Virus record (IMG/VR): IMGVR_UViG_2802429224_000013
DNA: 8,403 nt
Reading direction: 5' to 3' (one strand)
From: a virus
Lineage: Duplodnaviria > Heunggongvirae > Uroviricota > Caudoviricetes
Part shown: piece by piece, positions 1,928-8,403 of the stretch
How the letters are laid out: each line of letters opens with the position of its first letter
Position numbering within the stretch: the first letter of the stretch is position 1
Notes under the pieces: generated by a model
The model's database searches: none
Told to the model about the DNA's origin: nothing
Seen by the model: the letters and a program-made list of their open reading frames with translations, nothing else
Position numbers and translations under genes: made by a program

Positions 1928-2218
1928 ATGAAAAAGAAAAATTCTGGCTTTACTGCCAGCGGTCTCTCTCGGCCTGAAATCAGACACGGAGATATTTACC
2001 GCGACACCAGACGTGGGGGACGAGTGGTTATTCGTCACGTTACGCCAGGCAATATCACCTACCGCCGTGAGGCTTACGAATATGACTGCGTAATGCCGCG
2101 CCGTCAGTTTGAGCGTGATTTTATTCTGGTTGAAAACAAACAACAGGCAGTGGCAAGACGTGCAGCCACGAATATTAAAAAAATCCGGGCAATGTTGGTT
2201 GCGGGAGGTAAGAAGTGA
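1928..2218 (+). CDS. DUF4222-like small protein (96 aa)
   Basis: Track ORF. AGGAAA lies 8 nt upstream of the start. The pattern GDIYRDTRRGGRVVIRHVTPGNITYRREAYEYDCVMPRRQFERDF resembles DUF4222 proteins common in enterobacterial prophage-like islands. That call is from recall. The stop overlaps the next start (GTGA at 2215-2218). Confidence 0.65.
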   Translation: MKKKNSGFTASGLSRPEIRHGDIYRDTRRGGRVVIRHVTPGNITYRREAYEYDCVMPRRQFERDFILVENKQQAVARRAATNIKKIRAMLVAGGKK

Positions 2219-3627
2219 AAAACGCACCGAATTTAAAATATCAGCCGAAGGATAAATTCACCGAGGTAATCATTTTTGCCGGGACGGACGCTTACTCCCA
2301 TGCTCAACACTGGATTGAAAGCGAAGGACGAAAACACGGCGATAACGTACCACCTGTTTACCTGGGGCCGAAGCAACTGGCAGACCTGGCGAATATCCGC
2401 ATTATTGACGAGAAACGCCGCTTTGCGCGTGTCTATCTCGCGGGGGAGATCGAACCAATCCAGATCAATGCTATCGCTGAAAAACTGGCGCTGGCTGGCG
2501 TACAGGAGGCGAAATTATACAAAGGCATCACCGACCGGGAGCCGGAGAACTGGCGCGATTACCTGCAACGAATCCGCGAACAGCCAGAGCACGAAGAAAT
2601 GCTTACTGACGAGCAATACAGCCAGCGAAAAACCACACTACCAATGAGCATTGGATCGGAAGGATATGATTCACAGCTTAGCTATGTAGTTAAGGGCGTG
2701 ATTCCGGCTAATTCGCTATGTAGCACATACGGTGCGAGCGGTTCTTATAAGTCGTTCCTTGCGTGTTCGTGGGCATGTCATGTTGCTACCGGTATCCCGT
2801 GGGGAGGTCGCAGGGTTGTACATGGTGCGGTTATGTATGTCGTTGGTGAGGGCGGGATCGGTGTTCCTCGTCGTATCAAGGCATGGGAACTGGTGAACAG
2901 TGAGCAGGTGAAAAATCTGTACCTGGTAAATCGTCCAATTTTTCCGGCCGCACCGAGTGATGTTGATGAAATGGTTATTGCTGCCCGACAGGTTGAGCTG
3001 GAAACGGGTAAACCTGTACGCATGATTATTCTGGATACTCTGGCGCGTTGCTTTGGTGGCAGCGATGAAAATGATGCGCGGGATATGGGGGCATTTGTCC
3101 ATGGATGTGACGAACTGAAACGGCGTACAGGCGCTACAGTGCTGGTAATTCACCATTCCGGCAAGGATGAAACAAAGGGTGCGCGCGGTTCCAGTGCGTT
3201 TCGTGCAGCACTGGATGCAGAGTACCGGATACGCCGTGAAGGTGCAGGCAGTGAAGCCCTGGTTATCGCATGTACCAAGATGAAGGATGCGGAGGAACTG
3301 AAAGAAATGGCTTGCGATTTGCGCGAGGTTGAGCTTTTCAAGGATGAAGGCGGGGAGTTAATCACGTCGTTGGTGCTGGAGGATAAACCCCGTCCGCCAG
3401 TTGAACTGGAGCGCATCGAGTACGTTGCTAACAAGACAGAGAATCACGCCGCGCTATGGGGCTGTATCCGTTCACGCACGCAACGCGGAGATAAATGCAC
3501 TATCCCGTTGTTGCGCGATGACATGAAAAAGCTGGGGTATGAGATGAAAAACTTCCGACGCTGGCTGTACAAGCTGGAAGGTGACGGCGTAATCGCTATT
3601 GACGATGATGACGTGCGCCCACTGTAA
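2215..3627 (+). CDS. Replication initiator/helicase-type RecA-fold ATPase (AAA_25/RepA-DnaB-like), 470 aa, with C-terminal winged-helix-like domain
   Basis: This is the longest ORF. It has a GTG start coupled to the upstream stop. The Walker A-like motif is GASGSYKS (nt 2731-2754) and the Walker B-like motif is MIILD (nt 3022-3036). LARCFGGSDENDARDMGAF and VLVIHHSGKD are typical of AAA_25/RepA-type proteins. The basic C-terminal ~70 aa is consistent with a DNA-binding domain. Iterons begin at its stop codon. Confidence 0.88.
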   Translation: MKNAPNLKYQPKDKFTEVIIFAGTDAYSHAQHWIESEGRKHGDNVPPVYLGPKQLADLANIRIIDEKRRFARVYLAGEIEPIQINAIAEKLALAGVQEAKLYKGITDREPENWRDYLQRIREQPEHEEMLTDEQYSQRKTTLPMSIGSEGYDSQLSYVVKGVIPANSLCSTYGASGSYKSFLACSWACHVATGIPWGGRRVVHGAVMYVVGEGGIGVPRRIKAWELVNSEQVKNLYLVNRPIFPAAPSDVDEMVIAARQVELETGKPVRMIILDTLARCFGGSDENDARDMGAFVHGCDELKRRTGATVLVIHHSGKDETKGARGSSAFRAALDAEYRIRREGAGSEALVIACTKMKDAEELKEMACDLREVELFKDEGGELITSLVLEDKPRPPVELERIEYVANKTENHAALWGCIRSRTQRGDKCTIPLLRDDMKKLGYEMKNFRRWLYKLEGDGVIAIDDDDVRPL

Positions 3628-4013
3628 AAAGTGAGGCGTAAAAGTGAGGGGGACAGGGAATATTTAAAAATCACCCCTGTTTCCCTCACTTCTCAACCTG
3701 TATATATACCAAAAAGTGAGGAGTTAATTTTGTACTAAAAAAACAAAGAGTTAAGTGTATTCGCATTTTCTATTTTTGAATATAGGGCAAATAATAAATG
3801 TGAGTAGTAAATGTGAGGAATAGTGAGTAAATAGAATAAATTCTCTGGAAATTACAAACAGGTAAAAAATAAAACAAATAAAGATTTTAACTAAAACTTA
3901 ACTATTTGCCTCATATTTGCGTATATATAGGGGTTTTAAAGTGAATACTTAAAAATACATTTAAAATCATATTGTTATTAACTTCATAAATTCTCACTGT
4001 GTAGCAGGTGAGG
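3626..4013. other. Putative origin of replication: GTGAG(G) iterons flanking an AT-rich core
   Basis: Seen in sequence: AAAAGTGAGG occurs at 3627-3636, 3640-3649 and 3712-3721, with an inverted copy CCTCACTT at 3684-3691. Variants are AAATGTGAGT (3796-3805), AAATGTGAGG (3809-3818), AATAGTGAGT (3819-3828), an inverted CTCAC (3993-3997) and GTGAGG (4008-4013). The clusters flank a very AT-rich stretch (~3829-3992) containing GTATATATA at 3700-3708 and 3921-3929. A 15-bp imperfect inverted repeat spans 3644-3658 and 3675-3689. The origin function is inferred from its position next to the replication gene, as in SaPI/PICI ori. Confidence 0.62.
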
Positions 4014-4038
4014 AATTAAAAAATCAGGAATGTTAAAA

Positions 4039-5650: not shown

Positions 5651-5655
5651 CGGAG

Positions 5656-5679
5656 GCCGGGATTTTTCCCGGCTTTTTT
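5656..5679 (+). terminator. Rho-independent terminator ending the first rightward operon
   Basis: Seen in sequence: GCCGGGA (5656-5662), TTTT loop, TCCCGGC (5667-5673), then TTTTTT (5674-5679). It starts 6 nt after the PerC-like stop. Confidence 0.78.
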
Positions 5680-5685
5680 GTGCCA

Positions 5686-5726
5686 GTAAAAAACCCGCAG
5701 CCAGAAGTGTTGCGGGCTTTGTTTTT
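5686..5726. terminator. Second, bidirectional-looking terminator hairpin
   Basis: Seen in sequence: CCCGCA (5694-5699) pairs with TGCGGG (5711-5716), extendable by a G.U and a C-G pair. An A-run precedes it (5686-5693) and CTTTGTTTTT follows (5717-5726). Confidence 0.55.
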
Positions 5727-6025: not shown

Positions 6026-6064
6026 TGGTCGTGATTTTTTGGTGAAAAAAGAGAGGTGGTAAAA

Positions 6065-6649
6065 ATGCCAGCAAGCAAAGAAGATTTGCGATTAAAACTG
6101 ATGGAGGTGGTTAACGCTCTGTCAGAGTCGCAGGGCAGCACTCCGCAGGAGATTATCGAAATTCTGAATGCGATCCCCGCACAGGATTTCACAAAAGCGG
6201 ACGAGGATGACGCGAATAAAAACATCGTCGCGTCAGTCGAAGATGAATCCTCACTGGCAGAAGCCCAGGCTAAAGCGGATTCCGCATACAGCAATATGGG
6301 CCGTCGCGCTCCAGCCCCGTTTGCTGGTGAAAAGTCGATGGATTACCGCAAGCGTGCATTAATTGGTGCACAGAAGCTGGCTAAAAAATTCAGTGATGTG
6401 GATATTCGTTCCGTTTCAGATTCTGCAACGCTGGCGGTGCTGGAAGATCAGATTTACCAGGCTGCAAAAGACAGTGTTCAGTGGGCTGTGGAAAATACGC
6501 CGGGCTATTTGCGTAAAACCGTAAGAATGGATGAAGCCGGACGGCGGATTACTGAATATCAGGGGGATCCGAATAACTGGCTTAGTGCTTTCAAAATCCC
6601 TCCCCGTCGCCTGGTTAAAATTAACGTTGCAAGCCTCGCGGGGGCATGA
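6065..6649 (+). CDS. Hypothetical protein (194 aa), acidic N-terminal half
   Basis: Track ORF 6056..6649. The ATG at 6065 is preferred because GAGAGG (6051-6056) lies 8 nt upstream. No family recognised. It is co-oriented with and close to the flanking genes. Confidence 0.72.
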   Translation: MPASKEDLRLKLMEVVNALSESQGSTPQEIIEILNAIPAQDFTKADEDDANKNIVASVEDESSLAEAQAKADSAYSNMGRRAPAPFAGEKSMDYRKRALIGAQKLAKKFSDVDIRSVSDSATLAVLEDQIYQAAKDSVQWAVENTPGYLRKTVRMDEAGRRITEYQGDPNNWLSAFKIPPRRLVKINVASLAGA

Positions 6650-6713: not shown

Positions 6714-7385
6714 ATGCTTTTAACAGAAATTGAGGCGGCAAAGCAGATTCGGGACGGTCAGCTACCGTCGCCTTATCAGTTTTCCAACATGTGGCTGATT
6801 AACCTGCGTATCACAGGAACCGGAATGGCCTATCGCGCCGAAGAAAAAGAATTTGTCTGGCGTTCACCGCAAACTTATCTCAATCCGCAGTTCCTGGAAC
6901 GTTGCGCCGGAGTACCCGTCATCATCGACCATCCCGAAAGCAAAACCCTTGAAGACGTGGGCGAACGGTCGCGCATTATTGGCACCGTCATGTTGCCGTA
7001 TATTCGCGGTGACGAGGTGTGGGGCGTATGCCGGATTTACGGGCAGGAAATCATCGATTACATCCAGAAAGCCCGGGGGGAGATATCCACCAGCCCGTCG
7101 GTTGTGTTTTGTGGTGCGTCCGGTGGGGCAGAAGTTCCTGATGTAATGGGCGAGGACAATTTTTTTATTGAGGGTACGCCATTTCTTATCGATCACGTTG
7201 CACTCGTACCGTTGGGCGTATGGGATAAGGGCGGGAAACCATCAGGTGTGGAAGTAACAACGCCGACAGAAGAAGAACAGCTCGCCGGAATGGTTCGTGA
7301 AGTTATTGATGCGGCCTGCAAGCCAGCCCTGGAAAAACTGGAAGAAATATCCGGGCGGCTGGCTCAACTGGAAAAAGAAGGGTGA
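6714..7385 (+). CDS. DUF2213-like phage head-assembly (scaffold/protease-like) protein with C-terminal coiled-coil tail, 223 aa
   Basis: Track ORF, with a GGGGG SD before the ATG at 6714. GVPVIIDHPE...IIGTV...GEISTSPSV...FLIDHVALVPLG resembles the DUF2213 pattern (..EHP.., ELS.GY, NHLALV..GRAG) as I remember it. The tail EEEQLAGMVREVIDAACKPALEKLEEISGRLAQLEKEG looks helical or coiled-coil. The family call is uncertain. Confidence 0.7.
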   Translation: MLLTEIEAAKQIRDGQLPSPYQFSNMWLINLRITGTGMAYRAEEKEFVWRSPQTYLNPQFLERCAGVPVIIDHPESKTLEDVGERSRIIGTVMLPYIRGDEVWGVCRIYGQEIIDYIQKARGEISTSPSVVFCGASGGAEVPDVMGEDNFFIEGTPFLIDHVALVPLGVWDKGGKPSGVEVTTPTEEEQLAGMVREVIDAACKPALEKLEEISGRLAQLEKEG

Positions 7386-7391
7386 GTCATA

Positions 7392-7919
7392 ATGCTAATG
7401 AGCAAGGCAGAATATGCCAAACACAAAGGCGTAAGCCGCCAGACAGTTTACGACTGGATCGAGAAAGGCGAAGTGATCATGTCTGGCAAAAAAATTGATG
7501 TGGAGGCGACAGAGCAGCGGAACAGCCCACCGGAACAAGGGAAAGACACCGTTTCTGAAATGTGGCCAGAAAGAACGCTGGAAATGACGTGGGGCGAGTT
7601 CTGGAAAGCAGTTAAGGCCAGAGACGGTAAAGACCCAGCGCCAGTAACTGACGATGATATAGAGCAGCGCGTGCGGAATGCAGCCGAAGAATTAGGCTGG
7701 GAAGTGCAATTTCTTGATGGTGGTGCTATCTGCCTTGAGGATTGCGACGGACAGCATTACTTTGAGCAATACGATTTGCTGGGTAATGCTCGTCTGGCAA
7801 TTCGTATGCTGCGTTGCGAACTCTGCTATGTTGCAGGTGATTATCCCGATGAACTGGAATCATGGAGTGAAGCCGGGCTAAACGCCCTGGCTGAATGGGA
7901 AAAATCAGACCATCAATGA
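7392..7919 (+). CDS. N-terminal HTH DNA-binding protein (MerR/excisionase/Nu1-type HTH), candidate small-terminase-like or Rpp-like packaging factor, 175 aa
   Basis: Track ORF, with an alternative start at ATG 7398. MSKAEYAKHKGVSRQTVYDWIEKGEV matches the HTH_17/Nu1-like helix-turn-helix pattern. The C-terminal ~120 aa is unrecognised. A dense repeat array follows immediately. The packaging role is inferred from context. Confidence 0.7.
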   Translation: MLMSKAEYAKHKGVSRQTVYDWIEKGEVIMSGKKIDVEATEQRNSPPEQGKDTVSEMWPERTLEMTWGEFWKAVKARDGKDPAPVTDDDIEQRVRNAAEELGWEVQFLDGGAICLEDCDGQHYFEQYDLLGNARLAIRMLRCELCYVAGDYPDELESWSEAGLNALAEWEKSDHQ

Positions 7920-7925
7920 CATCAA

Positions 7926-8219
7926 AAAGTGTCAAGTTGAGCAGCTTGCCAGGTTGACACTTTGCACTCTGAACGCGAAAAAGTGTCAACCTCGCTGTAA
8001 ACCCCGCCGTTACTGGCTTTGCGCCAGATTTACCACGTCAAAAAGCCGAAAAAAATCGCGAAAAGTGTCAAGTTGCCATGCTTAGAAATGCTAAGGTTTG
8101 ATAAGGTTTGATAAGGTTTTTCGCGAAAAAGTGTCAAGTGTGTCAACCTGCGATGTTAAGATTTGTTAAGGTCTCAAGCCGGAAAGTGTCAACCAGCCCC
8201 TAAGATTTCCTAAGGTGTA
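7926..8219. repeat. Composite array of two interleaved short motifs: AAAGTGTCAA boxes and 10-bp phased TAAG(G/A)T units
   Basis: Seen in sequence: AAAGTGTCAA occurs at 7926-7935, 7980-7989, 8062-8071, 8128-8137 and 8183-8192. There is an inverted copy TTGACACTTT at 7954-7963 and a partial GTGTCAA at 8140-8146. The tandem 10-bp units are CTAAGGTTTG/ATAAGGTTTG/ATAAGGTTTT (8091-8120), GTTAAGATTT/GTTAAGGTCT (8155-8174) and CTAAGATTTC/CTAAGGTGTA (8200-8219). A palindrome CTTAG-aaatg-CTAAG lies at 8081-8095. Confidence 0.85.
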
Positions 8220-8223
8220 AATC

Positions 8224-8403
8224 ATGACCATCACCGAAGCCGATTTGCTGGAGATGATCCGCAGCATTGCCGGAATCAAACAACCTGCAAGCAAAATTAA
8301 CAGGTGTTCAGCGCCTGTTTCCGTTGTGCTGCAACAGGAACGCCACCAGCATGATGATGTGAGGCCGTATCAGTGGCGGAAACCGGATAGGCCACGACGG
8401 TGA
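8224..8403 (+). CDS. Small hypothetical protein (59 aa) with basic C-terminal tail
   Basis: Hand-translated and absent from the supplied track: MTITEADLLEMIRSIAGIKQPASKINRCSAPVSVVLQQERHQHDDVRPYQWRKPDRPRR. AAGGTG (8212-8217) lies 6 nt before the ATG, and the TGA falls at the window end. The SD is formed by the last TAAGGT repeat unit. Confidence 0.5.
   Translation: MTITEADLLEMIRSIAGIKQPASKINRCSAPVSVVLQQERHQHDDVRPYQWRKPDRPRR

What the first reader, a model, noticed from the sequence alone, without database searches (positions are those of the whole stretch)
7920..8223. Modular two-motif repeat array downstream of the HTH gene: candidate packaging (cos/pac-like) or centromere-like site
Three successive modules each consist of one or two AAAGTGTCAA boxes followed by 2-3 tandem 10-bp units built on TAAG(G/A)T. 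The modules are 8062-8120, 8128-8174 and 8183-8219. Two more boxes form a 10-bp perfect inverted repeat (7926-7935 / 7954-7963), and another box lies at 7980-7989. Three boxes share the longer context GCGAAAA(A)GTGTCAA. The 10-bp phasing places the TAAG units on one face of the helix. This is the architecture seen at sites that nucleate protein-DNA complexes, such as lambda cosB R sites for gpNu1, pac sites, parC/parS centromeres and iteron operators. The array starts one base after an HTH protein gene and ends as the SD of a 59-aa ORF. The complement of each box contains TTGACA, so the array also offers many -35-like hexamers. If the HTH protein is TerS- or Rpp-like, this would be the satellite-specific packaging recognition site.
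Basis: partly seen in the sequence, partly recalled or inferred. Interest (0 to 1): 0.72.

Follow-up and report, generated by a model that had tools for sequence, protein, structure and literature searches.

The report
Satellite packaging-recognition repeat array
The repeat array is real and is most likely the DNA site where a phage-satellite island's own terminase-like DNA-binding protein assembles to get the island packaged into a helper phage's capsids; this is a new variant of a known piracy trick, and it carries an unexplained replication-origin-like element at its centre.

Summary
Positions 7920-8223 hold seven GTGTCAA-core boxes (six are exact AAAGTGTCAA) and seven TAAGRT units in strict 10-bp phase, at the stated coordinates.

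The window is the 3' part of an E. coli PICI-type phage satellite. The adjacent 175-aa protein ("HTH-A") has an N-terminal winged helix-turn-helix homologous to the DNA-binding domain of lambda-like small terminases (TerS). It lacks their C-terminal region.

In phiNP/BZS1-like phages a constant, annotated cosN is followed by repeats that co-vary with the TerS N-domain. A sister satellite protein ("HTH-B") sits behind that same cosN with GTGTCAA/GTGTAAA boxes in the cosB position.

The locus is syntenic with EcCICFT073: Rpp-like protein, repeats plus cos, then a conserved small ORF. The array stays the same across islands with three different replication modules, and each of those has its own origin.

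Best reading (about 0.55): a satellite-specific cosB/pac-like packaging site read by an Rpp-like protein.

Three things remain unresolved:
- No lambda, P2 or phiNP/BZS1-type cosN is present.
- The central conserved 20-mer is identical to an element found in plasmid and phage replication origins.
- The partner of the TAAGRT units is unknown.

Verdict: new variant of a known kind, moderate interest.

The parts
7392..7919 (+). Gene for HTH-A (175 aa). It has an N-terminal TerS-type winged HTH (residues ~1-44), a disordered linker, and a confidently predicted alpha/beta C-terminal domain of unknown fold family. It is the presumed reader of the AAAGTGTCAA boxes and a positional analogue of RppA.
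7926..7989 (.). Left box group: AAAGTGTCAA at 7926-7935 (+), 7954-7963 (-) and 7980-7989 (+). These are R-site-like elements directly after the HTH-A stop codon.
   Evidence: The inverted pair is conserved across genera with variable spacer lengths (18-38 nt) and no compensatory change, so it is a protein-binding site rather than a hairpin. It parallels the three ATGTCCGG repeats between rppA and the inverted cosN in EcCICFT073.
7995..8022 (-). Central conserved core, CTGTAAACCCCGCCGTTACTGGCTTTGC (minus strand GCAAAGCCAGTAACGGCGGGGTTTACAG). It sits where EcCICFT073 has its inverted cosN. It is also the same element found inside iteron arrays of plasmid and phage origins. Its role is unresolved: cosN-equivalent or priming/origin-type element.
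   Evidence: It is conserved in Escherichia, Raoultella/Klebsiella-like, Pantoea and Scandinavium islands. A variant (CCAGTAATGGCGGGGCTTACAG) is identical to the sequence next to the Rep iterons of a 4.9-kb plasmid. It lies between iterons in O-like genes, including a Stx2a phage. It lies downstream of primase genes. It resembles the G4 primer start.
8028..8061 (.). A-rich spacer (ATTTACCACGTCAAAAAGCCGAAAAAAATCGCGA) between the core and the right-hand modules.
   Evidence: Read from the sequence. It is conserved among E. coli variants.
8062..8121 (+). Module 1: box 8062-8071, the conserved ATGCTTAGAAATGC (8078-8091), and three 10-bp units GCTAAGGTTT/GATAAGGTTT/GATAAGGTTT (8090-8119) with phased T-tracts.
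   Evidence: The unit copy number varies between strains. Box-plus-GCTTAGAAATGC is conserved in homologous islands that are 52% identical.
8128..8176 (+). Module 2: box 8128-8137, overlapping second GTGTCAA 8140-8146, and the units GTTAAGATTT/GTTAAGGTCT (8155-8174).
   Evidence: This module is deleted in L020 and is a recombination breakpoint to cargo in L019.
8183..8223 (+). Module 3: box 8183-8192 and the units CCTAAGATTT/CCTAAGGTGT (8199-8218). The last unit doubles as the ribosome-binding site of the small ORF.
   Evidence: It is present whenever the small ORF is present and absent when cargo replaces that ORF.
8224..8403 (+). Small conserved ORF (59 aa, MTITEADLLEMIRSIAGI...YQWRKPDRPRR). 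It serves as a synteny marker that follows RppA, HTH-A and HTH-B alike. Its function is unknown.
   Evidence: BLASTP matches the EcCICFT073 93-aa ORF (E 7e-5), the L092 63-aa ORF (E 1e-6) and the L024 ORF (E 4e-8). It gives a weak phrog_1561 hit.
3627..4020 (.). The island's Rep-linked origin: an AT-rich region with AAAAGTGAGG/CCTCACTT iterons directly after the RepA-family helicase gene (2215-3627). It is listed because it shows that the 7920-8223 array is not the cognate origin.
   Evidence: Islands with a DUF927 protein or a primase instead carry GCGGGATAT or GGTAGACAG iterons at the same place, but have the same HTH-A array.

Best explanation
The array is the island's packaging-specificity site. 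It is a cosB/pac-like nucleoprotein assembly site read by the adjacent protein HTH-A, which acts like an Rpp protein.

What is shown:
1. The element is a PICI-type satellite.
2. HTH-A carries a small-terminase-type winged-helix DNA-binding domain but lacks the terminase oligomerisation and TerL-binding region.
3. The AAAGTGTCAA boxes are the conserved partner of that domain across genera.
4. In related phages, and in a sister satellite family, such 7-bp repeats sit between cosN and the terS-like gene and co-vary with the N-domain.

What is inferred:
1. After helper induction and island replication from its own origin (3627-4020), HTH-A binds the boxes on both sides of the central element.
2. 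The 10-bp-phased TAAGRT/T-tract units lie on one face of the helix. They either bend the DNA (the role IHF plays in lambda cosB) or bind a second protein, such as the helper's TerS DNA-binding domain.
3. The complex recruits the helper's terminase to island concatemers, directly or by heterodimerising with helper TerS as Rpp does.
4. Island DNA is then packaged in preference to helper DNA.
For: Satellite context:
- The island runs int, alpA, antA, icd-like, Rep, ProQ/FinO, PerC, DUF2213, HTH-A, small ORF. It is inserted in yifB in strain ETEC1748.

HTH-A N-domain is TerS-like:
- It matches PHROG phrog_57, terminase small subunit.
- It is 35-41% identical to TerS N-termini of phiNP-like phages, E 2e-9 to 2e-7.
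- There is no similarity to the TerS C-terminal regions.

Boxes are linked to the gene:
- In protein-fetched loci from Rouxiella, Raoultella, Buttiauxella, Pantoea and Scandinavium, AAAGTGT(C/A)AA boxes follow the gene.
- 49 of 67 viral-collection loci that carry the inverted box pair have HTH-A directly adjacent.
- The ordered architecture is kept at 52% protein identity.

Phage paradigm:
- ACGG|GCATTGCGCGCC|G is an annotated 12-nt cohesive end in Serratia phage BZS1.
- It precedes terS in at least 120 contigs.
- The intervening repeats co-vary with the TerS N-domain: TGTCCCA, GGTAACA, GTGTGAA or GTGTCAA.

Sister family HTH-B:
- It has this cosN followed by GTGTCAA/GTGTAAA boxes, at the 3' end of PICI-like islands.

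Synteny with EcCICFT073:
- The order there is rppA, three ATGTCCGG repeats, an inverted cosN, then a homologous small ORF.
- Rpp-TerS recognition of a PICI-specific cosB is experimentally established in PMC6739421.

Not the cognate origin:
- The array is constant across RepA-helicase, DUF927 and primase islands, and each of these has its own iterons.
Against: - No lambda (GGGCGGCGACCT), P2 or phiNP/BZS1-type cosN occurs in the window or in the whole island.
- The only conserved non-box element, the core, matches an element of plasmid and phage replication origins, and was found in no temperate coliphage of the phage collection.
- Two of the more distant homologous loci have boxes but no core (L005, L008).
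- HTH-A has no detectable sequence relation to RppA/B/C beyond the HTH.
- Its C-domain has no informative structural match.
- The same wHTH fold is used by excisionases, Cox and BldC-type regulators.
- No helper phage is identified.
- No binding, cleavage or transfer data exist.
- L024 keeps the right half of the array without the HTH-A gene.
Confidence: 0.55

Rival explanations
1. The array is a replication or priming element. The boxes act as iterons for HTH-A around a conserved origin-type core, possibly a G4-type start site for host DnaG primase. That would make it a second origin or a primer-start site for the island.
For: The core is found in several origin contexts:
- Next to Rep iterons in a 4.9-kb plasmid, with 22 contiguous nt identical to an E. 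coli island variant, and between repA and parA of an IncP-like element.
- Between O-protein iterons inside lambda-O-like genes, including a Stx2a phage, followed by an AT-rich region and a lambda-ori-like palindrome.
- Immediately downstream of primase/helicase genes with element-specific iterons on both sides.

The + strand, CCGCCGT-TACTG, resembles the annotated G4 complementary-strand primer start, GCCGCCGTCCCTACTG. An A-rich tract adjoins the core.
Against: - Each island already has a canonical AT-rich iteron origin directly after its rep gene. That origin co-varies with the Rep type, while this array does not.
- HTH-A's DNA-binding domain is of the TerS type, and its sister family sits behind a genuine cosN.
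- The locus is syntenic with a proven cos region.
- Some homologous loci lack the core but keep the boxes.
- The G4 similarity is short, and the hairpin support is weak.
Confidence: 0.15
2. The array is a transcriptional operator or regulatory region. HTH-A, a MerR/Xis/Cox/BldC-like wHTH protein, binds the boxes and/or the tandem units to control the small ORF and the downstream variable cargo, or to autoregulate in the HTH-B family.
For: - The closest structural matches include Xis, Cox, BldC and AlpA-type regulators, which bind tandem direct repeats about one helical turn apart.
- The array ends at the ribosome-binding site of the small ORF and precedes a variable cargo region that holds defence-like genes.
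- In the HTH-B family the boxes lie upstream of the protein's own gene.
- Each box contains TTGACA on the complementary strand.
Against: - No sigma-70-like promoter or terminator is predicted in the array.
- The boxes and their order are conserved whether or not the small ORF or a given cargo follows.
- Seven sites plus a conserved core spread over 300 bp is far more than an operator needs.
- The N-domain groups by sequence with TerS proteins rather than with regulators.
Confidence: 0.12
3. The array is a centromere-like partition site (parS/parC type), or a hotspot sequence for site-specific exchange of the downstream cargo.
For: - The two-motif repeats around a central element resemble P1 parS in layout (from general knowledge).
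- Variant islands break to different cargo exactly at boxes, and modules are gained and lost.
Against: - No ParA/ParB/ParM-type genes and no second recombinase are annotated in the island.
- The breakpoints are explained by ordinary recombination between repeats.
- The island is an integrative element and does not need a centromere.
Confidence: 0.04

Closest known systems
Rpp proteins and the PICI-specific cosB of EcCICFT073 (Fillol-Salom et al. 2019, PMC6739421; 2018, PMC6092414)
   Same: - Both are E. coli PICI-type satellites.
- A small protein with a TerS-like wHTH domain and a different C-terminal part lies at the 3' end of the island, followed by a homologous small ORF.
- Short repeats specific to the satellite lie between that gene and a central site, where EcCICFT073 has three ATGTCCGG repeats and an inverted cosN.
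- The proposed logic is the same: redirect helper terminase to satellite DNA.
   Different: - There is no detectable sequence homology to RppA/B/C beyond about 24 residues of the HTH.
- The protein is longer (175 versus 144-153 aa) and has an alpha/beta rather than helical C-domain.
- The island has no lambda cosN.
- The array is larger, contains two motifs, and extends on both sides of the central element.
- The central element is origin-like.
Lambda-family cos sites: cosQ-cosN-cosB with R sites for gpNu1 (TerS) and an IHF bend, here represented by the phiNP/BZS1 group
   Same: - Both have 7-10-bp repeats in both orientations read by a TerS-type wHTH.
- The repeats lie adjacent to the gene for that protein.
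- Repeat type co-varies with the N-domain.
- The phased T-tracts could replace the IHF bend.
   Different: - In the phages the repeats lie between cosN and the start of terS. Here they follow the 3' end of the gene and lie on both sides of the centre.
- The conserved GGGTCC(T)TTCC element and the known cosN sequences are absent.
- HTH-A lacks the TerS C-terminal region.
Satellite-encoded TerS with its own pac site (SaPI type), and the P1 pac site (hexamer repeats on both sides of the cleavage region)
   Same: - A satellite-encoded specificity protein has its recognition repeats next to its gene.
- Repeats flank a central region.
- No fixed cosN would be needed.
   Different: - HTH-A shows no sequence similarity to the C-terminal (oligomerisation/TerL-binding) regions of the phage TerS proteins compared, and its predicted C-domain is alpha/beta.
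- There is no evidence for headful packaging.
Iteron replication origins (lambda ori in gene O; plasmid oriV), optionally with a G4-type primase start site
   Same: - Element-specific repeats lie on both sides of the same conserved core, with an adjacent A/T-rich tract.
   Different: - The array does not co-vary with the island's Rep protein, and a separate Rep-linked origin exists.
- The presumed binder has a terminase-type rather than a Rep-type DNA-binding domain.

Membership tests
Lambda-type cos site | A cosN sequence shared with a helper phage (cohesive-end cut site) | tested here: not met
   GGGCGGCGACCT (lambda/phi80), GGCGAGGCGGGGAAAGCAC (P2/P4) and ACGGGCATTGCGCGCCG (phiNP/BZS1) are all absent from the window and from the whole island at up to 3 mismatches. 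The core aligns only loosely with lambda cos.
Lambda-type cos site | cosB: repeated R sites for a TerS-type wHTH, next to the gene for that protein, with repeat type co-varying with the protein | tested here: met
   The boxes are conserved next to HTH-A/HTH-B genes across genera. Repeat type co-varies with the N-domain in phages and in the HTH-B variant L250 (GTGTGAA with SRRAFYNW, versus GTGTCAA with SRQALYSW).
Lambda-type cos site | Physical genome ends at the site in packaged DNA | not testable with these tools
   Contig ends of family-A islands in the collections do not cluster at the array (inspected). No virion sequencing data are available.
Rpp (redirecting phage packaging) proteins | Sequence homology to RppA/B/C | tested here: not met
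   phmmer and profile searches against PDB, which holds RppC as 6HN7, found nothing. BLASTP against RppA (c1503) gives 37% identity over 24 residues, E 0.012.
Rpp (redirecting phage packaging) proteins | N-terminal domain with the fold of the TerS DNA-binding domain | tested here: met
Rpp (redirecting phage packaging) proteins | Genomic position next to the PICI cos/cosB at the 3' end of the island | tested here: met
   The order is the same as in EcCICFT073: Rpp-like gene, repeats and central site, then a homologous small ORF.
Rpp (redirecting phage packaging) proteins | Forms a complex with helper TerS, blocks helper packaging and promotes island packaging | not testable with these tools
   This requires interaction and transfer assays. 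No helper phage is identified.
Small terminase (TerS) | Central oligomerisation region and C-terminal TerL-binding region | tested here: not met
Iteron origin of the island's Rep protein | Iterons adjacent to, and co-varying with, the rep gene | tested here: not met
   Rep-linked iterons differ: AAAAGTGAGG for the RepA helicase, GCGGGATAT for DUF927, GGTAGACAG for the primase. They lie directly after each rep gene. The HTH-A array is the same in all three island types.
Origin-associated conserved core / G4-type priming signal | The same conserved sequence as in bona fide origins | tested here: met
   CCAGTAAYGGCGGGGCTTACAG is shared with a plasmid oriV region. The shorter core is shared with O-gene iteron arrays and primase-adjacent arrays.
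Origin-associated conserved core / G4-type priming signal | Primer synthesis by DnaG at the CTG of the single-stranded site | not testable with these tools
   The only evidence is sequence resemblance to the annotated G4 primer start. Support for a hairpin is weak.
Partition centromere (parS/parC) | Linked partition ATPase and centromere-binding protein genes | tested here: not met
   None is annotated in the island, and none was found by Pfam in the window ORFs.

The most novel reading that the evidence does not exclude
The array may be a composite site. A terminase-type specificity protein (HTH-A) assembles around a conserved replication-origin element, the roughly 20-nt core (A/G)(G/C)CCAGTAAYGGCGGGGCTT.

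That core may be a so-far undescribed, widely shared component of iteron origins in plasmids, lambdoid (including Stx) phages, virulent phages and satellites. It is possibly a start site for host primase, like the G4 complementary-strand origin.

On this reading the satellite either couples the start of packaging to a priming/origin element, or has recruited a TerS-type domain as an origin-binding protein. The TAAGRT units would be sites for the helper's TerS in a two-protein (Rpp-like) recognition code.
Probability: 0.2. Interest if true: 0.8.

Novelty: new variant of a known kind. Interest (0 to 1): 0.5.

Why it matters
Phage satellites move virulence and anti-phage defence genes between bacteria, and the variable cargo region of these islands lies directly downstream of the array.

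For Gram-negative PICIs only one packaging-hijack mechanism (Rpp with a PICI-specific cosB) has been worked out, and its DNA recognition elements were never defined.

This analysis adds the following:
- Two further protein families unrelated in sequence to Rpp, HTH-A and HTH-B, that occupy the same genomic slot. They are spread over Escherichia, Klebsiella, Serratia, Yersinia, Pantoea and other genera.
- A concrete recognition motif, AAAGTGT(C/A)AA, with natural co-variation, which makes the specificity code directly testable.
- For HTH-B, a named candidate helper type: phiNP/BZS1-like phages with the cohesive end GCATTGCGCGCC.

The origin-like core is a separate lead on how iteron origins are built.

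Tried and rejected
Searches that found nothing:
- Lambda, P2 and phiNP/BZS1 cosN sequences in the window and in the full island.
- BLAST of the array and tblastn of HTH-A against 50,697 phage genomes. The only hit was one chance match.
- Rfam over the whole window. There is nothing in the array.
- Promoter and terminator scan. There is nothing in the array.
- Sequence and profile searches of HTH-A against PDB chains. No Rpp or TerS hit.
- Literature search for the core sequence and for G4-type priming signals.

Readings rejected:
- RNA hairpin or terminator for the 7926/7954 inverted pair. The arm sequence is conserved without compensatory change, while the spacer varies from 18 to 38 nt.
- Cognate origin of Rep. 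Rep-specific iterons lie elsewhere.

Inconclusive or uninformative:
- A collection scan for TAAGGTTTGATAAGGT, intended to find a helper cosB with such units. Hits were mostly the same satellites or chance matches. Two unexplained loci (L332, L360) carry similar 10-bp unit pairs.
- Hairpin covariation for the core. The flanks are mostly just conserved, with few double changes.
- Many raw hits of the 15-mer CCAGTAAYGGCGGGG are ordinary terminator hairpins or chance matches and were set aside.
- EcCIMP1 (PMC11773190) was checked as a possible relative. It shares PerC but not this module.
Full report
**1. The observation**

- AAAGTGTCAA lies at 7926-7935 (+), 7954-7963 (-), 7980-7989, 8062-8071, 8128-8137 and 8183-8192. 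An extra GTGTCAA lies at 8140-8146.
- Seven TAAG(G/A)T units lie at 8092/8102/8112, 8157/8167 and 8201/8211, all on the + strand and exactly 10 bp apart within each group.
- AAGTGTCAA occurs 7 times in the window, 6 of them within 270 bp. The expectation is 1.9 even with one mismatch allowed.
- Each unit carries a T-run, so T-tracts recur every 10 bp (read from the sequence).
- The array begins 7 nt after the stop codon of the 175-aa ORF (7392-7919). Its last unit is the ribosome-binding site of the 59-aa ORF (8224-8403).

**2. What the window is**

The window is 95% identical to chromosomal islands in E. coli.

- In strain ETEC1748 the island interrupts yifB. Its gene order is integrase, AlpA-type HTH, AntA/B, Icd-like, small ORFs, RepA-family helicase, a hypothetical protein, ProQ/FinO, PerC, a "NUDIX" protein, DUF2213, the 175-aa protein, the 59-aa ORF, then about 850 bp to the other half of yifB. 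This is the layout of a Gram-negative phage-inducible chromosomal island (PICI; PMC6092414).
- Pfam confirms AAA_25, ProQ, PerC and DUF2213 in the window.
- The array region itself occurs in 166 of 5426 complete E. coli genomes.
- Those islands are mosaics. The same 175-aa gene plus array is found with a RepA helicase (window, L001), a DUF927 protein (L018) or a DNA primase (L019). The genes upstream and the cargo downstream also differ. L018, for example, carries an AAA ATPase plus a DUF4435 protein, and other islands carry other genes.

**3. The array is not the cognate replication origin**

- Directly after each rep gene lies an AT-rich region with its own iterons: AAAAGTGAGG/CCTCACTT after the RepA helicase (window 3627-4020), GCGGGATAT after DUF927, and GGTAGACAG after the primase.
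- These iterons change with the Rep type. The 7920-8223 array does not.

**4. The neighbouring protein, HTH-A**

- The family occurs in Escherichia, Citrobacter, Klebsiella, Raoultella, Enterobacter, Serratia, Yersinia, Pantoea, Rouxiella and others, and is always annotated as hypothetical.
- Its first 42 residues are almost invariant (MLMSKAEYAKHRGVSRQTVYDWIAKGEVVMSGxKIDVEATE), while the rest diverges.
- PHROGs places residues 1-42 in a small-terminase family (phrog_57, E 3e-7).
- A confident AlphaFold model (mean pLDDT 88) shows a three-element wHTH, a disordered linker and an alpha/beta C-domain.
- No PDB chain, including RppC, is found by sequence or by profile.
- No phage genome in the collection encodes a detectable homologue.

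**5. The boxes go with the protein**

- In loci fetched by the protein alone from one genome per species, AAAGTGT(C/A)AA boxes follow the gene in Escherichia ruysiae, Rouxiella, Raoultella, Buttiauxella, Pantoea and Scandinavium. They typically start with an inverted pair right after the stop codon.
- The spacer of that pair varies from 18 to 38 nt, while the arms stay identical. This argues for protein-binding sites and against a hairpin.
- A scan of the viral collection for the inverted pair gave 67 loci, and 49 of them have HTH-A immediately adjacent.
- In islands whose protein is only about 52% identical, the whole order is preserved: box(+), box(-), a degenerate box...CGCCGTTACTGG..., box, GATGCTTAGAAATGC..., box...TAAGAT....
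- Over 51 distinct loci the median is 5 boxes in the 360 bp after the gene, against 0.03 per kb elsewhere. The core is present in 39 loci.
- A TAAG 10-bp pair is present in 38 loci, mostly in the Escherichia clade. These numbers are biased by how the loci were fetched.

**6. A sister family and the phage paradigm**

A sister family, here called HTH-B:
- Eight of the pair-containing loci lack HTH-A. They carry dense GTGTCAA/GTGTAAA clusters upstream of a roughly 195-aa protein that begins MSLMSVSQYAKHAGMSRQALY.W.
- HTH-B is equally widespread.
- In E. coli it lies at the 3' end of a PICI-like island: DUF927, PerC..., boxes, HTH-B, a 63-aa ORF, then hpt.

The shared cos sequence:
- The box cluster is preceded by a conserved sequence, TTTTTGGGTCC(Y)TCC-N~17-ACGGGCATTGCGCGCCG.
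- That sequence also lies just upstream of terS in Citrobacter phage phiNP, ahead of the gene order terS-terL-W-portal.
- The 17-mer occurs in at least 120 contigs, mostly 40-47 kb.
- In Serratia phage BZS1 the depositors annotate GCATTGCGCGCC as the left cohesive end, and the right end of the record finishes ...GGGTCCTTCC...GCACGG.
- Two contigs end at this sequence: one starts exactly at it and another stops 1 nt after it. It is therefore a real cosN.

Co-variation between cosN and terS:
- The repeat type co-varies with the TerS N-domain. MTTMNQSQYAQHSGVDRKTIGRWIKAG... goes with (A)TGTCCCA. MNQSDFAKLHGVSRKTVTTWKARG... goes with GGTAACA. HTH-B goes with GTGTCAA/GTGTAAA. An HTH-B variant with SRRAFYNW in place of SRQALYSW goes with GTGTGAA/TTCACAC.
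- This is the lambda cosB/gpNu1 relationship (established knowledge; summarised in PMC6739421).

How HTH-A and HTH-B relate to TerS:
- HTH-A aligns with these TerS N-termini at 35-41% identity over about 50 residues, E 2e-9 to 2e-7.
- It aligns with HTH-B at 51-62% identity over the HTH.
- Neither HTH-A nor HTH-B matches the conserved C-terminal part of the phage TerS proteins.
- Both are therefore a TerS DNA-binding domain joined to a different C-terminal domain, which is the design of Rpp.

**7. Synteny with the experimentally studied island**

In EcCICFT073 (CFT073 chromosome) the 3' end reads as follows:
- cosQ-cosN (GGGCGGCGACCT, + strand)
- rppA (144 aa, c1503)
- three ATGTCCGG repeats, two in one orientation and one inverted
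- a second, inverted cosN
- a 93-aa ORF, MTEAEILRLIRRVAGI...YHWKKPERLRR

The window's 59-aa ORF (MTITEADLLEMIRSIAGI...YQWRKPDRPRR), the 63-aa ORF after HTH-B and the ORF in L024 are all homologues of that ORF.

RppA, HTH-A and HTH-B therefore occupy the same slot, and the window array lies exactly where EcCICFT073 has its rppA-distal repeats plus cos.

For EcCICFT073 it was shown experimentally that Rpp binds helper TerS and that the complex prefers the island's own cosB (PMC6739421).

**8. What does not fit: the central core**

No known cosN is present. Lambda, P2 and phiNP/BZS1 cosN are all absent from the window and from the whole island.

The only conserved non-box element is CTGTAAACCCCGCCGTTACTGGCTTTGC (7995-8022). 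Read on the minus strand it can be laid against lambda cos as ...GTAACG|GCGGGGTTTACA|GCGAGG versus ...GTTACG|GGGCGGCGACCT|CGCGGG. The match is loose, and the GGGTCCTTTCC element is missing.

The same core turns up in quite different places, always among element-specific iterons:
- Immediately downstream of primase/helicase genes, with iterons GTGTCGGG, CCGACAC, TGTGCAG or GGTAAC.
- In the large non-coding regions of virulent phages Greed, Berlingot/Y2 and JH01.
- Inside lambda-O-like genes between O-type iterons and ahead of an AT-rich stretch and a lambda-ori-like palindrome. This includes a Stx2a phage (CCGCACATGA iterons).
- Next to the Rep iterons of a 4.9-kb Klebsiella plasmid, where CCAGTAATGGCGGGGCTTACAG is identical to the E. 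coli island variant L019. It also lies between repA and parA of an IncP-like element.

No temperate coliphage in the phage collection has it near a terminase gene. The core is therefore an origin-associated element.

A possible function, offered as a hypothesis only:
- The + strand reads CCGCCGT-TA-CTG-G.
- The annotated primer start of the phage G4 complementary-strand origin reads GCCGCCGTCCCTA-CTG-C.
- E. coli DnaG starts at CTG (established knowledge). A host-primase start site is thus a possible function.
- Support for a hairpin around the core is weak, and I found no paper describing the sequence.

Two of the more distant HTH-A loci (Rouxiella, Buttiauxella) have boxes but no core.

**9. 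The TAAGRT units**

- A box followed by a pair of xxTAAGxTTT units is seen in Escherichia, Raoultella/Klebsiella-like, Pantoea and Scandinavium islands. The number of units changes between strains, and modules are lost or gained at boxes.
- Nothing identifies their reader.
- Three possibilities are compatible with the data. All are inference.
  1. A static bend from phased T-tracts, replacing the IHF bend of lambda cosB.
  2. Sites for a second wHTH protein, such as the helper's TerS domain in an Rpp-like heterocomplex. The GGTAACA repeats of the phiNP group are of similar form.
  3. Cooperative head-to-tail binding of an Xis/Cox/BldC-like protein.
- Two unrelated loci (L332, L360) carry runs of similar unit pairs (CCTAAC, ACTAAG, GATAAC, GCTAAC, GATAAG) without boxes. 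They remain unexplained.

**10. Conclusion**

- The array is best explained as the island's packaging-specificity site: cosB/pac-like R sites for an Rpp-like, TerS-domain protein. Confidence is about 0.55.
- Shown: the satellite context, the TerS-type domain, the box-protein linkage, the co-variation paradigm, the synteny with rppA-cos, and independence from the Rep origin.
- Inferred: binding, recruitment of helper terminase, and the role of the phased units.
- Main rival: the array is, or contains, a priming/origin element. That reading rests on the identity of the core.
- Regulatory and centromere readings are less likely.
- Relative to the literature this is a new variant of a known kind. 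Two new protein families do the job ascribed to Rpp, with an explicit recognition motif and an unexpected origin-type element at the centre.

Noticed in passing
window 7995-8022; also L152 371-385, L112 3229-3243, L167 4289-4303, L177, L200, L205 (phage Greed), L204 (Berlingot), L206 (JH01), L362 about 2697-2720, L363 about 4001-4026, L366 about 770-790: A conserved core of about 20 nt, (A/G)(G/C)CCAGTAAYGGCGGGGCTT, lies in the middle of element-specific iteron arrays. The contexts are plasmid oriV regions, lambda-O-like genes (including a Stx2a phage), regions next to primase/helicase genes, and virulent phages of Erwinia, E. coli and Alteromonas. Its complementary strand resembles the phage G4 primer start (CCGCCGT..TACTG). 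No description was found in the searchable literature.
   Followed up: partly
L096 4966-5078 (phage phiNP); L367 1-74 (phage BZS1); L208-L327: A large group of roughly 40-47-kb lambdoid phages shares GGGTCCTTCC-N17-ACGG|GCATTGCGCGCC|G; GCATTGCGCGCC is annotated as the cohesive end in BZS1. It is followed by cosB repeats (TGTCCCA, GGTAACA and others) that co-vary with the TerS N-terminal domain. TerS N- and C-terminal parts are shuffled between phages.
   Followed up: yes
L092 9700-10588; L053, L061, L082, L250: A second satellite protein family (HTH-B, about 195 aa) has GTGTCAA/GTGTAAA (or GTGTGAA) box clusters between a phiNP/BZS1-type cosN and its own gene. This points to phiNP/BZS1-like phages as helpers. 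L053 shows the module next to myovirus tail genes, so the satellite may be embedded in or adjacent to a prophage.
   Followed up: partly
window 3627-4020: This is the island's Rep-linked origin: an AT-rich region with at least six AAAAGTGAGG/CCTCACTT iterons after the RepA-family helicase gene. Sister islands with a DUF927 protein or a primase have different iterons at the same place.
   Followed up: yes
L018 12656-14612 and the equivalent positions in L019-L024: The region just downstream of the array is a variable cargo slot. It holds an AAA ATPase plus a DUF4435 protein in O104:H4 and 55989-type strains, and an RNA-binding-domain protein, a zinc-ribbon protein and others elsewhere. Breakpoints fall exactly at boxes of the array.
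   Followed up: partly
L024 2960-3160: One island lacks the HTH-A gene and the left boxes but keeps the core, two modules and a variant of the small ORF. It is either a decaying island or evidence that the right half can act without HTH-A in cis.
   Followed up: no
L332 8640-8850; L360 13060-13350: Runs of paired 10-bp units (CCTAACAAAT/CCTAACGTTT, ACTAAGTTTT/ACTAAGTCTT, GATAACATTT/GATAACGTTT, GATAAGGTTT/GATAAGGTAA) resemble the TAAGRT units of the window. They have no GTGTCAA boxes and lie in unrelated viral contigs upstream of apparent cargo genes.
   Followed up: no
window 6056-6649 and 6714-7385: Two adjacent ORFs match one 545-position PHROG profile (phrog_6216) in swapped order. The upstream ORF matches profile positions 405-544 and the downstream DUF2213 ORF matches 115-328. 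The second also weakly matches a head-maturation protease family. RefSeq labels the first ORF 'NUDIX hydrolase', which Pfam did not support here.
   Followed up: no
window 5654-5723: Two consecutive GC-rich hairpins with T-runs lie directly after the PerC gene. They were picked up as a weak match to an unrelated sRNA model and are probably a tandem terminator that splits the island's operon.
   Followed up: no
window 8090-8119 versus L001 19879-19898: The TGATAAGGTT unit is present three times in the window but twice in most related E. coli islands, consistent with slippage or unequal recombination.
   Followed up: yes
L364 3094-3374 (EcCICFT073): The rppA-distal, inverted cos of EcCICFT073 has three ATGTCCGG(T) repeats between rppA and cosN. 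The rppA-proximal cos has no obvious repeats. These repeats are candidate R elements for the Rpp-TerS complex and could be compared with the published cos1/cos2 data.
   Followed up: no
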